Shown here piece after piece: positions 2,426-22,345 of a DNA stretch of 64,000 nucleotides (within the stretch, counting starts at the first letter, position 1; each line of letters begins with the position of its first letter). Where the stretch lies: contig CAWBOB010000003.1 of NCBI GenBank assembly GCA_963790335.1, positions 33,825 to 97,824 on the forward strand, given 5' to 3'. Under the pieces are notes generated by a model. The model had not been told where the DNA came from and searched no databases. It saw only the letters and a program-made list of their open reading frames with translations. The DNA comes from an uncultured Actinomycetes bacterium. Lineage in GTDB: Bacteria; Actinomycetota; UBA4738; HRBIN12. The position numbers and the translations under genes were made by a program.

Positions 2426-2638
2426 GCCCAGCCGCCGAGCGGGCGTCGGAGCCCGCGTGTAGCATGACTCGTACATCGAGAGTGGTCCGGAATCAACCGG
2501 GCCCGGCAACCTGGGCGGACGACCCAAGGTGCCTGCTCGCGCGAGCGAGGATGCGGCTCCTCTCGAGGAGCAACCAAGCGTCCGGCGACCCGTCGGCTCC
2601 GCTCGGGTTCTGCGTCGTCCGCCGCGAGAGGACGACGC

Positions 2639-19023: not shown

Positions 19024-20298
19024 ATGCCTCGGATGGACGATGGTGCCCGCGTCGCCGTGCTGAGCGTGCACACCTCGCCCATGGATCAGCCGGGGGCGGG
19101 TGATTCCGGCGGCATGAACGTGTACGTGCGGGCCGTCGCCGAGCGATTCGCCAGTCGCGGCGTGGCGGTCGACGTCTTCACGAGGTGTCGTGGGGGAGCA
19201 GATCACGAGGTGAAGACGCTCGCGCCCGGTATCCGCGTGGTGAGCGTCAAGGCCGGCCCGTGTGCCCGGGTGCCGAAGGCGGAGCTGCCGCGCTTCCTGC
19301 CGGAGTTCCTCGGCGGTGTGCTGCGGATCGCCCACGAGGACGGACGTGGGTACGACATCGTGCATAGCCACTACTGGCTCTCCGGTTGGGTCGGTCGGGC
19401 GATGAAGGCGGCCCTCTCCGCGCCGCTCGTCGCCTCGTTCCACACGCTCGGCAAGGTCAAGAACTACTCCCTGGCGCGCGGCGAGGAGCCTGAACCAGAC
19501 CTGCGTCTGGCGGCCGAGCAGGCGGTGATCGACGATGCAGACCGGATCCTCGCGCCGACGCCGACCGAGGCCGCGCAGCTCGTGGGGCTCTACGGGGCCG
19601 ACCCGAGCTGCGTGCGACTCGTGCCACCCGGGGTCGATCATCAGCTGTTCGTGCCGGGTGATCGTTCGGCCGCGCGTGAGCGGCTCCACCTGTCGGGTCT
19701 GCGCCTCGCGCTGTACGTGGGGAGGCTGCAGCCGCACAAGGGCCCCGATGTGGCGGTGCGCACGCTCGCCGAGGCGGTCGCGCGCGAGCCCGCCGTTGCC
19801 GAGCACCTGGTGCTCGCGATCGTCGGTGGGCCGAGCGGCCACGAGAAGGGCGCCGAGGTCGCGCGGCTGCTCGAGCTCGCCTCGGCCTTGGGTGTGAGCG
19901 ACCGCGTCATGCTCTTCCCGCCCCAGCCGCAGCGGAACCTCGTCGACTTCTACTCGGCGGCCGACGTCGTGCTGGTGCCATCCCGTTCGGAGTCGTTCGG
20001 GTTGGTGGCGCTCGAGGCGCAGGCGTGCGGCACGCCCGTCGTCGCGGCCGACGTGGGAGGGCTTCCGTACGTGGTGCGGGACGGCCTGAGCGGGTTCCTC
20101 GTCGACGATCATGATCCCGCCGATCACGCCGAGCGGATGCTCGAGATCCTGCGTGACCCCGGGCTGCAGGCGTCGTTCGGTGCGGAGGCGGCCCGCCATG
20201 CCCTGCGCTTCACGTGGGACGCGACGACCGACCAGATGATGGCCGTCTACGACGAGATCTTGAAACGAGCCGCGAGGTCGGCGTCGCGACACCGCTGA
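19024..20298 (+). CDS. mshA: D-inositol-3-phosphate glycosyltransferase
   Basis: SVHTSP..QPG.GDSGGMNVYV, HSHYWLSG, ESFGLVALEAQACGTPVVA. Confidence 0.85.
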   Translation: MPRMDDGARVAVLSVHTSPMDQPGAGDSGGMNVYVRAVAERFASRGVAVDVFTRCRGGADHEVKTLAPGIRVVSVKAGPCARVPKAELPRFLPEFLGGVLRIAHEDGRGYDIVHSHYWLSGWVGRAMKAALSAPLVASFHTLGKVKNYSLARGEEPEPDLRLAAEQAVIDDADRILAPTPTEAAQLVGLYGADPSCVRLVPPGVDHQLFVPGDRSAARERLHLSGLRLALYVGRLQPHKGPDVAVRTLAEAVAREPAVAEHLVLAIVGGPSGHEKGAEVARLLELASALGVSDRVMLFPPQPQRNLVDFYSAADVVLVPSRSESFGLVALEAQACGTPVVAADVGGLPYVVRDGLSGFLVDDHDPADHAERMLEILRDPGLQASFGAEAARHALRFTWDATTDQMMAVYDEILKRAARSASRHR

Positions 20299-20409
20299 CG
20301 GACGCACCCGACGGTGCCGTGCGCCGCGTCACATCCGGGGCCGAATTGTCACTCTTCTTCGCACGCCCCTGACCAGCACGTTCATACTCTGACCTGCGGA
20401 AACGTCGGG

Positions 20410-20438
20410 TTGACCCGGGTCGGGGTCGCCCGTATCGT
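20410..20438 (+). promoter_or_regulatory. Housekeeping-sigma promoter for the ncRNA
   Basis: TTGACC-17 bp-TATCGT; the predicted +1 at G20446 coincides with the first base of the terminal helix. Confidence 0.75.
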
Positions 20439-20445
20439 GCGCCTC

Positions 20446-20793
20446 GCTCCAAGCAGTCGAAGCATCGACGCGAGGAGATCGACGAGGTCGCGGAGCAGCC
20501 GCAAGGAGGCTCCGGGACCGGGAGAACCGACGAAGGCCGCAAGGCCAGACGCGGAACTCCGGGGTCGCAGTCGAAGGCCGCGAGGCCGGAAGCTGCACCT
20601 CCCGAGCTTGGCCGACGCTGCAAGGCCGAAGCCGGTTCGGCCCTCGGCGGAACGTCTTCGGGCGGGCCGCAGGGGAACGGTCGGTCACCACCGCGACGAG
20701 CGCCCAGGTTGCTTGGAGCACCTGAGCCCGAGAGGCTGAGGGTGGTTGAGCGCTTCGGCGCTCGGCGAGCCCGAAGGTCTCTCGGGCTCTTTG
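20446..20793 (+). ncRNA. Unidentified large structured non-coding RNA (core 20446-20719)
   Basis: 13-bp closing helix GCTCCAAGCAGTC (20446-58)/GGTTGCTTGGAGC (20707-19), nested stems, GCAA/GCAA/GCGA and two C-UUCG-G tetraloops; own promoter and terminator; no credible ORF. Confidence 0.8.
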
Positions 20794-20796
20794 CTT
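20767..20796 (+). terminator. Intrinsic terminator
   Basis: GAGCCCGA/TCGGGCTC stem followed by TTTGCTT. Confidence 0.75.
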
Positions 20797-20827
20797 CCCG
20801 CTGCCCATCGCGGCTACGGTTCCGGCC

Positions 20828-21484
20828 ATGGGCGCGGAGGCTGAGGGTGGGTCGCGGCGCGGCGACGCAGCGGCGCGGCGTGATCGCATCATCGACGCAG
20901 CCATGCGTCACTTCGCCGAGCACGGATACCGCGGCGGCAAGGTCGAAGACATCGCCGTCGAGGTCGGGGTGGCCAAGGGCACGGTCTTCCTCGACTTCGG
21001 GTCCAAGGACGGCCTGTTCCTGGCGGCGTACGAACGCGCCGTCTCGATGTTGCCGGCCTGGCTCGATGCCCCCGAGGCGATCATCGCCGATGGGTTCTGG
21101 GCGACGCTCGACTGGTGGCTCGAGCACACCGAGGACTTCGTCGAACGCGACCCGGTGCCCAACCGGCTCGCGGTCATCGGTCGGTACGACGCAGGCATGG
21201 GCGTGCGGCTTCCGATCGATCGGTTCATGCGGAGCGAAGACCCCTACGGCACCCTGGAGTTCGTCGAGTTCGGAGTGGGGACCGGCGAGGTTCGCGACGA
21301 CGTCGACGCGGAGATGCTCGCCTCGATGCTCGACTGGGTCGCCGAGCGCTTCCAGGAGGCCCTCGTGTCGGCCGAGCTCGACCCGGGTTTGATCCATCGC
21401 CGGCCCGAGCGTCGTGGCATGCGCATCAAGGAGTTCGTCGAGATCCTGCGCCACGGCATCGAGTCACACGATGCCGAGGCATGA
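20828..21484 (+). CDS. TetR/AcrR family regulator
   Basis: RDRIIDAAMRHFAEHGY...DIAVEVGVAKGTVF..FGSKDGLF HTH. Confidence 0.9.
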   Translation: MGAEAEGGSRRGDAAARRDRIIDAAMRHFAEHGYRGGKVEDIAVEVGVAKGTVFLDFGSKDGLFLAAYERAVSMLPAWLDAPEAIIADGFWATLDWWLEHTEDFVERDPVPNRLAVIGRYDAGMGVRLPIDRFMRSEDPYGTLEFVEFGVGTGEVRDDVDAEMLASMLDWVAERFQEALVSAELDPGLIHRRPERRGMRIKEFVEILRHGIESHDAEA

Positions 21485-21508
21485 GCCGCGTGCGGTAGGT
21501 TGTGCCGC

Positions 21509-22345
21509 ATGAGCAGCGACGATGCACGCCGGGTGGCGTTCCTCGGTGGCGGGAAGATGGCCGAAGCCTTGATCTCGGGCCTCATCCGCTCGGGAGGGCG
21601 CACCGCCGACGAGATCATGGTCACCAACCGCCGCGAGGAACGCGCCCGCGAGCTCGCGGGCAAGTACGGGGTCACGGCGACCCTCGACAACGCCGAGGCG
21701 GTGCGCTGGGCCGACGTGCTCGTGCTGATGACGAAGCCCCAGGACATCGAGTCGCTGCTGCACCAGATCCGCGAGCACGTGCAGCCGCGCGACCGCGTGA
21801 TCAGCTTCGCGGCCGGCGTGCGCACGTCGTTCGTCGAGAAGCAGCTTCCCGACGACGTGCCGGTCGTGCGCGTGATGTCCAACGTGCCGGTCATGGTCGA
21901 CGAGGCCATGTCGGTCATCTCGGCGGGGCGATCGGCAGGCGATGAGCACCTCGCGATCGCCGAAGAGCTGCTCGGCACCGTGGGCAAGGTGCTCCGGCTT
22001 CCCGAGCAGCACCTCGACGCCGTGACGGCCACCTCGGGAAGCGGACCGGCCTACTTCTTCCTGCTCGCCGAGGCGATGATCGAGGCCTGCATCCTGCTCG
22101 GGCTCTCGCGCGACGTTGCGACCGAGCTGATCATCCAGACGATGCTCGGATCGGCCAAGATGCTGCGTGACACCGGCACGCACCCGGTGGAGCTCCGCGA
22201 GATGGTGACCTCGCCAGGCGGCACCACGATCGCCGCGATCCGCCATCTCGAGGAAGCCGGCGTGCGTGCCGCGTTCCTGAACGCGATCGACGCAGCGCGC
22301 CACCGCTCGCTCGAGCTGGCGCAGGGCGGCGACGACGACGAGTAG
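21509..22345 (+). CDS. proC: Pyrroline-5-carboxylate reductase
   Basis: GGGKMAEA, VVRVMSN, TATSGSGPAY, VTSPGGTT. Confidence 0.96.
   Translation: MSSDDARRVAFLGGGKMAEALISGLIRSGGRTADEIMVTNRREERARELAGKYGVTATLDNAEAVRWADVLVLMTKPQDIESLLHQIREHVQPRDRVISFAAGVRTSFVEKQLPDDVPVVRVMSNVPVMVDEAMSVISAGRSAGDEHLAIAEELLGTVGKVLRLPEQHLDAVTATSGSGPAYFFLLAEAMIEACILLGLSRDVATELIIQTMLGSAKMLRDTGTHPVELREMVTSPGGTTIAAIRHLEEAGVRAAFLNAIDAARHRSLELAQGGDDDE

What the first reader, a model, noticed from the sequence alone, without database searches (positions are those of the whole stretch)
20410..20796. Stand-alone, highly structured approximately 350-nt non-coding RNA gene between mshA and tetR-proC
Seen in sequence: a complete protein-free transcription unit. 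The promoter TTGACC-17-TATCGT (20410-38) puts +1 at G20446, exactly the first base of a 13-bp helix with 20707-19 (two G-U pairs). Nested stems inside are GTCGC 20487-91/GCGAC 20693-97, GACCG 20516-20/CGGTC 20682-86, ACCG 20526-29/CGGT 20678-81 and GCGG 20551-54/CCGC 20667-70. Side hairpins carry GCAA (20501-04, 20539-42), GCGA (20580-83) and C-UUCG-G (20657-60) loops, plus 20606-32 and 20636-52. After the core come two more hairpins (one GAGCGC-UUCG-GCGCTC, 20748-63) and a U-tailed terminator. Established: dense GNRA/UUCG loops and G-U pairs are typical of stable functional RNAs. It lacks the hallmarks of RNase P (GGAAAGUCC), tmRNA (tRNA-like ends) and SRP (CC-GGAA-GG loop). Inference: a new large ncRNA, or a very divergent RNA-polymerase-binding RNA of the Ms1/6S kind in a non-canonical locus.
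Basis: partly seen in the sequence, partly recalled or inferred. Interest (0 to 1): 0.9.

Follow-up and report, generated by a model that had tools for sequence, protein, structure and literature searches.

The report
New structured RNA gene in soil Actinomycetota
This is a real, separately transcribed, protein-free gene for a highly folded RNA of about 350 bases; it belongs to a previously undescribed RNA family found in almost every genome of an uncultured group of soil actinobacteria, and its job is still unknown.

Summary
The finding holds as an observation. Window 20446-20792 (+) is a non-coding, independently transcribed, strongly structured RNA gene: fold z = -7.0 and no codon periodicity. 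It has its own sigma-70-type promoter and a hairpin terminator. It lies in conserved synteny in 23 of 24 other genomes of the genus, and base-pair covariation supports the fold. Metatranscriptome contigs from four studies match it.

No Rfam 15 family matches. RNase P RNA, SRP RNA and tmRNA lie elsewhere in the genome, and a different conserved RNA occupies the locus where Ms1 normally lies.

New here: the RNA is a remodelled "type A" member of a wider family.
- All members share upstream promoter motifs, a 13-bp closing helix and an ornate, covarying 3' hairpin.
- Relatives ("type B", about 275 nt) carry a sequence-conserved unbranched rod.
- The window's clade has replaced that rod with 5-10 tetraloop-capped hairpins of near-identical design.

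The 3' module is found in 144 of 151 genomes of the class. Type B also occurs in other actinobacterial lineages.

Function is inferred only: most likely a trans-acting protein-binding decoy or scaffold. RNA polymerase is one candidate partner, but the least supported part of the reading.

The parts
20346..20356 (+). Upstream element TTGTCACTCTT, about 100 nt before the RNA start
   Evidence: Conserved in the relatives' intergenic regions and in other families. It occurs only 3 times in the 3.07-Mb genome. The other two copies also sit just upstream of promoter-like sites.
20369..20399 (+). Two phased CTGACC(A/T)GC repeats. TGACC starts at 20370 and 20390, and the -35 TGACC at 20411, so the spacing is 20-21 nt.
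   Evidence: Read from the sequence. Conserved across the genus and other families, including f18 loci. Their role as regulator sites is inference.
20410..20438 (+). Sigma-70-type promoter TTGACC-17-TATCGT
   Evidence: The only promoter-like site in 20200-21000. TTGACC-N17/18-TAnnnT is found in 23 of 23 extracted intergenic regions.
20446..20792 (+). The RNA gene itself (about 347 nt, type A form)
   Evidence: Fold z = -7.03. No codon periodicity between window about 20266 and 20866. 122-pair fold with 90.4% of cells paired in 13 relatives. RNA-library contigs lie within 20499-20814.
20446..20458 (+). P1, 5' strand of the 13-bp closing helix
   Evidence: Pairs with 20707-20719. 12 of its 13 pairs never vary and one varies on one side only (U-A to U-G), and all 13 pair in 13 of 13 relatives, including the two G.U pairs. 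It is also the closing helix of type B.
20462..20483 (+). 5' strand of the interrupted extension of the closing stem
   Evidence: Helices 2-3: 97.4% and 90.4% of cells paired, and 4 pairs with changes on both sides.
20486..20519 (+). Hairpin 1, GCAA loop at 20501-04
   Evidence: MFE fold. Helix 5 is 75.8% paired with 3 compensatory pairs; its register shifts in some relatives.
20521..20560 (+). Hairpin 2, GCAA loop at 20539-42; the most conserved interior element (GGGAGAACCGACGAAGGCC...)
   Evidence: Helices 6-7 are 100% paired and nearly invariant. The GGGA(G)AACCGA motif is shared with types B and C. This part has the highest depth in RNA-library contigs.
20561..20601 (+). Hairpin 3, GCGA loop at 20580-83
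   Evidence: Helices 8-9 (80.5% and 100% paired).
20602..20635 (+). Hairpin 4 (10-nt loop in the MFE; a GCAA-capped alternative is possible)
   Evidence: Helix 10 is only 67.8% paired. This is the least certain part of the fold.
20638..20679 (+). Hairpin 5, UUCG loop at 20657-60
   Evidence: Helix 11: 91.2% paired, 4 compensatory pairs.
20680..20703 (+). 3' strand of the closing-stem extension. At about 20679-80, eleven of the twelve aligned relatives carry about 87 extra nt (two more hairpins).
   Evidence: Alignment A2; pair counts.
20707..20719 (+). P1, 3' strand
   Evidence: See P1 5' strand. It is part of the pattern that found 117 stretches in genome contigs.
20724..20789 (+). 3' module: a composite hairpin. 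It has a 14-bp outer stem, a tandem-GA internal loop, a 4-bp stem, and an inner hairpin with a UUCG loop at 20754-57. It also serves as the terminator.
   Evidence: Model R1 scores 90.7 bits here. On 83 distinct sequences, 98.9% of cells pair and 11 of 27 pairs show compensatory change against 5.6 +/- 1.1 in shuffles (0 of 500). A G.U pair is invariant in 83 of 83.
20790..20796 (+). U-rich tail (TTTGCTT)
   Evidence: Terminator scan. A T-run follows the hairpin in relatives.
20815..20830 (+). Not part of the RNA: a -10-like TACGGT lies 7 nt before the ATG of the TetR gene (20828), suggesting a leaderless promoter.
   Evidence: Read from the sequence. The motif GCTAC(C/G)GT just before the start codon is conserved while the spacer after the terminator varies in length and sequence. 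TetR_N domain found. Promoter function is inferred.

Best explanation
Window 20446-20792 is an independently transcribed, stable, trans-acting non-coding RNA. It is a clade-specific remodelled form (type A) of a previously undescribed RNA family of uncultured Actinomycetota.

Shown:
- It has its own promoter and terminator.
- It is non-coding.
- Its fold is supported by covariation.
- It is near-universal and mostly single-copy in the lineage.
- Matching sequence occurs in RNA libraries.

Inferred mechanism: it works as a protein-binding RNA, a decoy or scaffold.
- The invariant closing helix and the ornate 3' hairpin form a fixed handle. Their conserved G.U pairs, tandem-GA loop and invariant GGUGG/CGAGCC bases point to specific recognition.
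- The interior presents one conserved element (GGGAGAACCGA...) plus a variable number (5-10) of near-identical GG-RR-n-GCC-GCRA-GGC tetraloop hairpins.
- This suggests either a multivalent binding platform or a very stable spacer array.

The partner is unknown. RNA polymerase is one candidate and is treated as a separate rival.
For: INDEPENDENT UNIT
- The only promoter-like and the only terminator-like site of 20200-21000 flank the RNA.
- There is no codon periodicity across window about 20266-20866, while both flanks are strongly periodic. The overlapping ORFs have no Pfam match.
- The TetR gene has its own -10 directly before its ATG.

STRUCTURE
- Fold z = -7.03 on the + strand against -3.27 on the - strand.
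- On 13 relatives, 90.4% of cells pair (slid controls 31-46%). 19 pairs show changes on both sides against 7.4 +/- 1.7 in shuffles (0 of 500).
- 3' module: 98.9% paired, 11 of 27 pairs compensatory (0 of 500 shuffles), invariant wobble pairs.

CONSERVATION
- BLAST hits in 23 of 24 other genomes of the genus. GT4-RNA-TetR synteny in 22 loci.
- Model R1 hits 144 of 151 genomes of the class draw, 98 of 100 high-quality genomes, 55 of 56 genera.

MODULARITY
- 54 type-A RNAs have 5-10 hairpins (median 7). Of 388 MFE hairpin loops, 286 are GNRA and 86 are UUCG or CUCG.
- 284 GNRA units share the consensus GG-R-R-n-GCC-GCRA-GGC.
- The window copy and L089 lack two hairpins that the 11 other aligned relatives carry.
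- A second small RNA candidate in the same genome (G000:C2:290645-290718) carries the same 3' module: R1 44.2 bits, E 1.2e-10. It also has the same TTGTCACTCTT upstream element.

EXPRESSION
- RNA-library contigs from 4 studies match. X15: 152 nt, depth 82.8, no mismatch, 20557-20707. X16: 172 nt, 20535-20707, 0 mismatches and 1 gap. X17: 151 nt, 1 mismatch. X20: 275 nt, 20538-20814, 11 mismatches.
Against: - No partner protein is identified. No RNA-binding protein gene is consistently adjacent: the neighbours are GT4, TetR, ProC, Pro_dh, GNAT and various enzymes.
- C-GCRA-G hairpins are also simply the most stable caps in a 69% G+C genome. The hairpin array could therefore be selected for stability or spacing rather than for binding.
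- Contigs cannot show the strand, ends or level of the RNA, and DNA can contaminate RNA libraries (warnings).
- The homology of type A to type B rests on promoter motifs, P1, the 3' module and synteny. The type-B core model does not recognise the window RNA: the best score, 22 bits, is an artefactual placement of R2's P1 on the window's 3' stem.
- Covariation counts are from related sequences and are not formal probabilities.
Confidence: 0.55

Rival explanations
1. It is specifically an RNA-polymerase-binding RNA: a functional analogue of 6S, Ms1 or CoRP that sequesters RNAP core or holoenzyme. This is a special case of the protein-binding reading.
For: - No 6S match in the genome (the genome is 86% complete).
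- It is stand-alone, has a sigma-70-type promoter, and is single-copy and near-universal in the lineage.
- The type-B relatives are unbranched rods of about 200 nt closed by the 5' and 3' ends, with a sequence-conserved, poorly paired central region. This is the general 6S/Ms1 architecture described in PMC4191392 (passages).
- RNAP-binding RNAs of Actinobacteria are lineage-specific and unrelated in sequence (Ms1, CoRP of 516 nt, scr0792). The authors propose that each species has one abundant such RNA (PMC11077062, passages).
Against: - The window RNA (type A) is branched and has no central bubble. Its closing region is a covarying paired rod.
- No sub-threshold 6S or Ms1 hit.
- The HAD-IB hydrolase neighbourhood that defines Ms1 loci (PMC9130861, passages) holds another structured RNA candidate in this genome: a 13-bp closing helix and z = -4.76. 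That candidate is conserved in 20 of 25 genomes, counting G000. It is the more likely Ms1 counterpart.
Confidence: 0.2
2. It is a cis-acting leader (riboswitch or attenuator) controlling the downstream tetR-proC operon or proline-metabolism genes by termination.
For: - Downstream genes on the same strand are often proline genes: proC after TetR in the genus, proC directly in f2, and Pro_dh then proC in L028.
- The RNA ends in a terminator just upstream of them.
Against: - P1 and the 3' hairpin are separated by 4 nt and do not overlap. The composite hairpin itself covaries, so no antiterminator alternative is evident.
- The downstream gene has its own -10 directly at its start codon, and the spacer after the terminator is variable.
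- The interior, the would-be ligand pocket, is not conserved between type A and type B.
- In other lineages the downstream gene is on the opposite strand or unrelated: malic enzyme, ABC-F, prephenate dehydratase, isochorismatase, YbjN.
Confidence: 0.07
3. It is an architectural, self-assembling RNA. The many GNRA loops would mediate tetraloop-receptor or loop-helix contacts that build a compact fold or a homo-oligomer, as reported (recalled, not checked here) for ROOL, GOLLD, OLE and raiA RNAs.
For: - 286 of 388 hairpin loops in 54 type-A RNAs are GNRA.
- The hairpins radiate from one multi-branch junction closed by a rod of about 35 bp.
Against: - I saw no recognisable tetraloop receptor (for example the 11-nt receptor) in the sequence. 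This was by eye only, not a formal scan.
- The number of hairpins varies from 5 to 10 between close relatives. That fits poorly with a precise tertiary architecture.
- No Rfam match to any of the large ornate RNA families.
Confidence: 0.08
4. It is not a functional RNA: a chance-structured GC-rich spacer, a decaying mobile-element remnant or a misassembled region.
For: - GC-rich intergenic DNA folds well in silico. The - strand also gives z = -3.27.
Against: - It is single-copy in the genome apart from a 31-nt chance-level match.
- It is syntenic across genus, family and class.
- Covariation is far above controls.
- Promoter and upstream motifs are conserved.
- It is held by 14 DNA runs and matched by RNA-library contigs.
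Confidence: 0.02

Closest known systems
Ms1 RNA (Mycobacterium, Streptomyces; binds RNAP core)
   Same: - An actinobacterial, stand-alone RNA of about 300 nt with a sigma-A-type promoter and an intrinsic terminator.
- 5' and 3' ends paired in a long closing stem, with an extra 3' hairpin.
- The type-B relatives are rods with a conserved, poorly paired middle (PMC4191392, passages).
   Different: - No sequence or covariance-model similarity.
- Different neighbourhood: GT4/mshA-like and TetR/ProC, not HAD-IB hydrolase.
- The HAD-IB locus of this genome has its own conserved RNA candidate.
- The window RNA is branched, without a bubble.
6S RNA (RF00013)
   Same: - A housekeeping-type, single-copy, abundant structured RNA closed by its ends.
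- No canonical 6S was found in this genome.
   Different: - No match to the 6S model.
- About 350 nt and multi-branched rather than a rod of about 185 nt with a central bubble.
- No evidence on pRNA templating.
CoRP RNA of Corynebacterium (516 nt, binds RNAP core and holoenzyme)
   Same: - A precedent for a long, lineage-restricted actinobacterial RNA with no similarity to 6S or Ms1, found only within one taxon (PMC11077062, passages).
   Different: - CoRP lies between tRNA genes and is confined to one genus.
CsrB/RsmZ-type sponge RNAs
   Same: - A variable number of near-identical short hairpin units in one RNA, with unit number changing between relatives.
- This is the architecture of a multivalent protein sponge.
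   Different: - The units here are C-GCRA-G tetraloop hairpins, not GGA-loop hairpins.
- CsrA is, to my recollection (not checked here), not known in Actinomycetota.
- The units sit inside a closed multi-branch domain with a fixed handle.
Large ornate bacterial ncRNAs of unknown or partly known function (OLE, GOLLD, ROOL, HEARO, raiA)
   Same: - A large, highly structured, conserved RNA found by comparative analysis, rich in GNRA loops and restricted to particular lineages.
   Different: - No match to any of their Rfam models.
- Smaller, with a different context (not phage- or transposon-associated).

Membership tests
6S RNA (RF00013) | Match to the 6S covariance model | tested here: not met
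   No hit at gathering threshold in the window. No hit at E<=10 in 20250-20900. No hit at E<=0.001 in the whole genome, which is 86% complete.
6S RNA (RF00013) | Unbranched rod with a large central bubble flanked by closing and terminal stems | tested here: not met
   The window RNA is a closing rod carrying five hairpins on a multi-branch junction. The type-B relatives are unbranched rods, so for them the feature is inconclusive.
6S RNA (RF00013) | Binds the sigma-A/sigma-70 holoenzyme and templates pRNA | not testable with these tools
   Needs RIP-seq, pull-down or in-vitro transcription.
Ms1 RNA | Gene lies beside the HAD-IB hydrolase ('inhibition of morphological differentiation') gene (PMC9130861, passages) | tested here: not met
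   The flanks here are a GT4 glycosyltransferase and TetR/ProC. The HAD-IB gene (TIGR01490, 179 bits) is at G000:C8:167879-168742. It has its own adjacent structured RNA candidate, conserved in 20 of 25 genomes, counting G000.
Ms1 RNA | Similarity to the Rfam model built from mycobacterial Ms1 | tested here: not met
   No Ms1 row among matches at E<=10. The Rfam model is said to reach only close relatives of mycobacteria (PMC9130861, passage), so this is a weak test.
Ms1 RNA | Long hairpin with a central bubble plus two short end hairpins; binds RNAP core | tested here: inconclusive
   There is one 3' hairpin and a closing stem, but the window RNA has no bubble. Binding is not testable here.
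Riboswitch or transcription-attenuator leader | Expression platform: a terminator that competes with an alternative pairing involving the aptamer's closing helix | tested here: not met
   P1 (ends at 20719) and the 3' hairpin (starts at 20724) do not overlap. The composite hairpin is 98.9% paired with 11 compensatory pairs.
Riboswitch or transcription-attenuator leader | Conserved ligand-binding core and a consistent regulated gene | tested here: not met
   The core differs between type A and type B. Downstream genes vary in identity and strand. The downstream gene has its own -10 at its start codon.
RNase P RNA, SRP RNA, tmRNA | Being the genome's copy of that universal RNA | tested here: not met
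   All three are found elsewhere above their cut-offs: RNase P RNA at C2:59902-60294 (206 bits), SRP RNA at C8:325919-326018 (73 bits), tmRNA at C1:316233-316581 (135 bits).
Any other Rfam 15 family (OLE, GOLLD, ROOL, HEARO, raiA, Y RNA and the rest) | Covariance-model match at or near the gathering score | tested here: not met
   - Window: the only match at gathering threshold is SAM-I/IV at 2468-2587.
- 20250-20900 at E<=10: four matches of 13.9-16.6 bits against cut-offs of 37-80.
- No gathering-threshold hit in 8 relatives' loci or in 5 loci of other lineages.
The new family proposed here (P1 + core + 3' module) | Shared 13-bp closing helix, 3' module (model R1), upstream promoter motifs and a position downstream of the GT4 gene | tested here: met
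   R1 scores 90.7 bits at the window locus. P1 and the promoter motifs are shared with type B. The GT4 gene lies upstream in f1, f2, f6, f7, f8, f18 and f52 loci.

The most novel reading that the evidence does not exclude
A modular RNA system new to bacteria. An ancestral rod-shaped RNA, conserved across several deep actinobacterial lineages, has had its apical domain replaced in one clade by a copy-number-variable array of near-identical GCC-GCRA-GGC tetraloop hairpins. This makes a multivalent sponge for an unknown tetraloop-hairpin-binding protein.

Its ornate 3' hairpin, with tandem GA and invariant wobble pairs, is a dedicated handle shared with at least one other small RNA of the same genome. 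It would mark the clients of an actinobacterial sRNA-binding protein that fills the place of Hfq or ProQ; as far as I recall (not checked here), Actinomycetota lack both.
Probability: 0.15. Interest if true: 0.9.

Novelty: new variant of a known kind. Interest (0 to 1): 0.72.

Why it matters
- Large, conserved, highly structured bacterial RNAs without a known function are rare, and past examples have led to new biochemistry.
- This one is near-universal in a class-level, uncultured soil lineage of Actinomycetota and is matched by contigs from soil and sediment metatranscriptomes.
- It shows an unusual evolutionary pattern. The handle (promoter, closing helix, 3' hairpin) is frozen, while the core was swapped from a sequence-conserved rod to a variable array of tetraloop hairpins.
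- That natural domain swap tells an experimenter which parts to mutate first.
- No global sRNA chaperone or CsrA-type sponge system is, to my recollection (not checked here), known in Actinomycetota. The only abundant regulatory RNAs I found described there (Ms1, CoRP) bind RNA polymerase.
- A new abundant RNA with a 3' module shared between two genes offers a direct handle for finding its protein partner.

Tried and rejected
TRIED AND REJECTED OR UNINFORMATIVE
1. Divergent RNase P, SRP or tmRNA: rejected. All three lie elsewhere in the genome.
2. Ms1 orthologue: rejected on synteny.
3. Small protein: rejected. No codon periodicity, and the ORFs 20314-20739 and 20709-21392 have no Pfam match.
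4. Repeat or mobile element: rejected. Single copy in the genome.
6. Alternative short terminator. GAGCCCGA at 20767-74 can pair with 20782-89, but covariation at the inner 4-bp stem favours the composite hairpin.
7. Idea that the type-A hairpin array arose by amplification of the invariant GCC-GUAA-GGC of type B. In type B the GGCC there pairs long-range, with compensatory changes, so a local hairpin is not supported. The idea remains speculation.
8. Scan of the genome for 13-mers complementary to the RNA, to find base-pairing targets: 476 short matches of GC-rich, codon-like words and nothing standing out. Uninformative.
9. Meaning of the upstream motifs. CTGACCTGCGG occurs 12 times in the genome, in mixed contexts. 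No regulon could be defined.
10. Taxonomy finer than phylum. The Atlas look-up with ProC gave nothing useful. Record titles say only Actinomycetota or Actinomycetes MAGs.
11. Literature. Searches (terms as printed there) found no description of this RNA.
12. Coverage. In one search no RNA-library contig covered 20100-20498 or 20815-21100, apart from one 34-nt piece at 20965-20998. X15 and X16 contigs both stop at 20707, where sequence shared with many relatives begins. I read that as an assembly break, not an RNA end.
Full report
OBSERVATION

The sequence at 20410-20796 is as described in its main features.
- The scan of 20200-21000 finds exactly one sigma-70-type promoter-like site, TTGACC-17-TATCGT at 20410-20438 (none in 50 shuffles). 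It also finds one terminator-like hairpin with a T-run at 20767-20792.
- The + strand from 20446 to 20796 folds at -211.1 kcal/mol. 100 dinucleotide shuffles average -168.2 +/- 6.1, giving z = -7.03, and none is as good. The - strand reaches only z = -3.27.
It also contains the GCAA, GCAA, GCGA and UUCG loops at the stated places, and the inner GAGCGC-UUCG-GCGCTC hairpin.

NON-CODING AND INDEPENDENT

- A third-position G+C frame plot shows strong codon periodicity in the GT4 (mshA-like) gene and in the TetR gene. There is none across window about 20266-20866.
- The two long ORFs that overlap the region have no Pfam match. The flanks are GT4 (19024-20298), TetR_N (20828-21484) and pyrroline-5-carboxylate reductase (21500-22345).
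- Directly before the TetR ATG lies a -10-like TACGGT. This motif is conserved in relatives, whereas the spacer behind the RNA terminator varies in length and sequence.
- The downstream operon therefore appears to have its own, leaderless promoter. This last step is inference.

CONSERVATION AND COVARIATION

- BLAST finds the region in 23 of 24 other genomes of the genus. In 22 fetched loci it sits in the same GT4-RNA-TetR arrangement, and proC follows in most of them.
- The promoter and the RNA could be delimited in 23 of 23 intergenic regions. RNA lengths were 347-436 nt.
- I laid the window's MFE structure on an alignment with its 12 closest relatives (61-87% identity).
  - 90.4% of 1567 cells form standard pairs, against 31-46% when partners are slid by 1-3 columns.
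  - 19 pairs change on both sides, against 7.4 +/- 1.7 in shuffles (0 of 500 reach it).
  - The weakest parts are hairpins 1 and 4.
They show 1 compensatory pair against 1.6 expected.
- The supported anatomy is:
  - P1;
  - an interrupted extension of the closing stem (20462-83 with 20680-703);
  - five hairpins on one junction;
  - a 4-nt spacer;
  - one composite 3' hairpin (20724-20789).

A WIDER FAMILY WITH TWO FORMS

All 80 titles shown are metagenome-assembled genomes.
- Nearly all are labelled Actinomycetota or Actinomycetes. The exceptions are 'uncultured bacterium', 'bacterium', 'Solirubrobacterales bacterium' and one 'Candidatus Velamenicoccus archaeovorus'.
- From the loci then held I could delimit 139 RNAs. 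66 carry a very conserved core (type B, about 270-285 nt). The rest, including the window's genus, do not (type A, about 300-460 nt).
- Both forms share four things:
  - the upstream elements (TTGTCACTCTT and the phased CTGACC repeats);
  - the promoter;
  - the 13-bp P1;
  - the 3' hairpin.
- Type B (60 distinct sequences) folds into an unbranched rod with 86 predicted pairs, 33 of them with compensatory changes. It has invariant internal-loop strands (GAAAGCCGUAAG, CCAAAG, AACGAAA).
- A model of the type-B core (R2) does not recognise the window RNA. Its best score there, 22 bits, is R2's P1 laid on the window's 3' stem, because both helices contain CCGAG/CUCGG.
- So in the window's clade the core has been replaced or remodelled beyond recognition, while the frame was kept.

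DISTRIBUTION

- The 3'-module model R1 hits 144 of 151 genomes (G000 included) drawn from the window's class. That is 98 of 100 high-quality genomes and 55 of 56 genera. All drawn genomes were labelled as the same order.
- In a phylum-wide draw, R1 hits 1 of 94 genomes outside that order. That one hit (G167) is a clear type-B RNA.
- R2 hits 9 of 140 genomes outside the order: f11 1 of 1, f18 7 of 10, and f52 once. The f52 hit rests on an unpublished genome.
- The GT4 gene lies upstream of the RNA in these lineages too. The other neighbours vary.

NOT A KNOWN FAMILY

- Rfam 15 gives nothing at gathering threshold here. At E<=10 it gives four matches of 13.9-16.6 bits against cut-offs of 37-80.
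- It gives nothing in 8 relatives' loci, in 5 loci of other lineages, or in a type-B RNA at E<=10 apart from a 13-bit P26 match.
- RNase P RNA, SRP RNA and tmRNA are found elsewhere in the genome. 6S is not found (the genome is 86% complete).
- Ms1 is defined largely by its HAD-IB hydrolase neighbour (PMC9130861, passages).
  - That gene is at G000:C8:167879-168742.
  - Next to it lies another structured RNA candidate with its own 13-bp closing helix and z = -4.76.
  - It has no Rfam match and is conserved in 20 of 25 genomes, counting G000.
  - The window RNA is therefore a second, distinct conserved RNA.
- Three literature searches found no description of it. Supplements were closed.

EXPRESSION

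- 14 DNA runs from soil or sediment hold 0.28-0.65 of the sampled words. Six metatranscriptome runs hold small shares.
- Contigs of four RNA libraries from four studies lie on the RNA:
  - an exact 152-nt contig at depth 82.8 (20557-20707);
  - a 172-nt contig with no mismatch and one gap (20535-20707);
  - a 151-nt contig with one mismatch;
  - a 275-nt contig of a relative running to 20814.
- Contigs show presence in RNA libraries. They do not show strand, ends or level.

HOW IT MAY WORK

The frozen parts look like recognition surfaces.
- In P1, 12 of 13 pairs never vary and one changes only U-A to U-G; its wobble pairs are kept throughout.
- The 3' hairpin keeps a tandem-GA loop, invariant GGUGG and CGAGCC bases, a G.U pair in 83 of 83 sequences and a U.G pair in 81 of 83. 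Meanwhile 11 of its 27 pairs covary.
- The same module (44.2 bits, E 1.2e-10) closes a second small RNA candidate at G000:C2:290645-290718. That candidate also carries the TTGTCACTCTT upstream element. The whole-genome search had missed it.
- Several relatives show second R1 hits of 40-46 bits, which I did not inspect.

The type-A interior is a bouquet.
- 54 RNAs have 5-10 hairpins. 286 of 388 loops are GNRA and 86 are UUCG or CUCG.
- 284 GNRA units share the design GG-R-R-n-GCC-GCRA-GGC.
- The unit number changes even between close relatives: the window copy and L089 lack two units.

A fixed handle plus a variable number of near-identical units is the architecture of a multivalent protein decoy or scaffold. 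That is my preferred reading (0.55, function inferred). It has one caveat: such hairpins are also simply the most stable ones available.
- RNA polymerase as the partner gets 0.2. Type B looks like a 6S/Ms1-style rod, and lineage-specific RNAP-binding RNAs have precedent (PMC11077062, passages). But type A has no bubble, and the Ms1-type locus is occupied by another RNA.
- A cis-acting leader gets 0.07.
- A self-assembling architectural RNA gets 0.08.
- A non-functional sequence gets 0.02.

CAVEATS

- E-values of my models are rough, because calibration was shortened.
- Covariation counts come from related sequences and are not probabilities.
- The full-length type-A RNA could not be modelled.
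- Counts include unpublished genomes, listed under Tried and rejected.
- The TSS, the 3' end and any partner are inferred.

Noticed in passing
window 2468-2587 (+): SAM-I/IV riboswitch aptamer, Rfam RF01725, 48.9 bits (cut-off 41.1). It is the only Rfam match at gathering threshold in the window.
   Followed up: no
G000:C8:167663-167863 (-), locus L162:1075-1275: A structured RNA candidate lies directly downstream of the HAD-IB hydrolase gene, the neighbourhood typical of Ms1. It has a 13-bp closing helix and z = -4.76, and no Rfam match. It is conserved in 20 of 25 genomes, counting G000, at 85-93% identity within the genus. It is probably this lineage's Ms1 counterpart.
   Followed up: partly
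G000:C2:290558-290718 (+), locus L149:1059-1219: A second small RNA candidate. It has the TTGTCACTCTT element, a TTGACC-17-TAGCGT promoter-like site, a short UUCG hairpin, and then a hairpin that fits the 3'-module model R1 at 44.2 bits. No Rfam match. It was missed by the whole-genome R1 search.
   Followed up: partly
G000:C1:338476 (-), locus L150: The third genomic copy of TTGTCACTCTT. It lies about 25 nt upstream of a promoter-like CTTGCC-17-TAGGGT site and a hairpin-forming leader of unknown kind. No Rfam match at E<=1.
   Followed up: no
window 20369-20415: TGACC starts at 20370, 20390 and 20411 (the last is the -35), a spacing of 20-21 nt or about two helical turns. The repeats are conserved from the genus to family f18. 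They may be sites for an activator or for extra RNAP contacts.
   Followed up: partly
G000:C8:348700-349700: A non-coding stretch of about 1 kb holds many iteron-like CCCGTCCC repeats and two CTGACCTGCGG copies. One copy shares 19 identical bases (ACTCTGACCTGCGGAAACG) with the RNA's promoter-upstream region. It may be the regulatory or origin region of an integrated element.
   Followed up: no
window 20679-20680 versus relatives (alignment A2, columns 243-329): The window RNA and its closest relative L089 lack an insert of about 87 nt (two tetraloop hairpins) that the 11 other aligned relatives carry. This shows recent gain or loss of whole hairpin units.
   Followed up: yes
window 20446-58/20707-19 and 20724-37/20776-89: The closing helix P1 and the outer stem of the 3' hairpin share the core CCGAG/CUCGG. 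The type-B model therefore places its P1 on the 3' stem. In principle this allows strand-swapped alternative pairings. The significance is unknown.
   Followed up: partly
loci L028 (1632-2624 +) and L193 (453-1370 -): Proline dehydrogenase genes lie next to the RNA in two other families, in addition to proC in several. Proline-metabolism genes recur around this RNA, possibly only through inherited synteny.
   Followed up: partly
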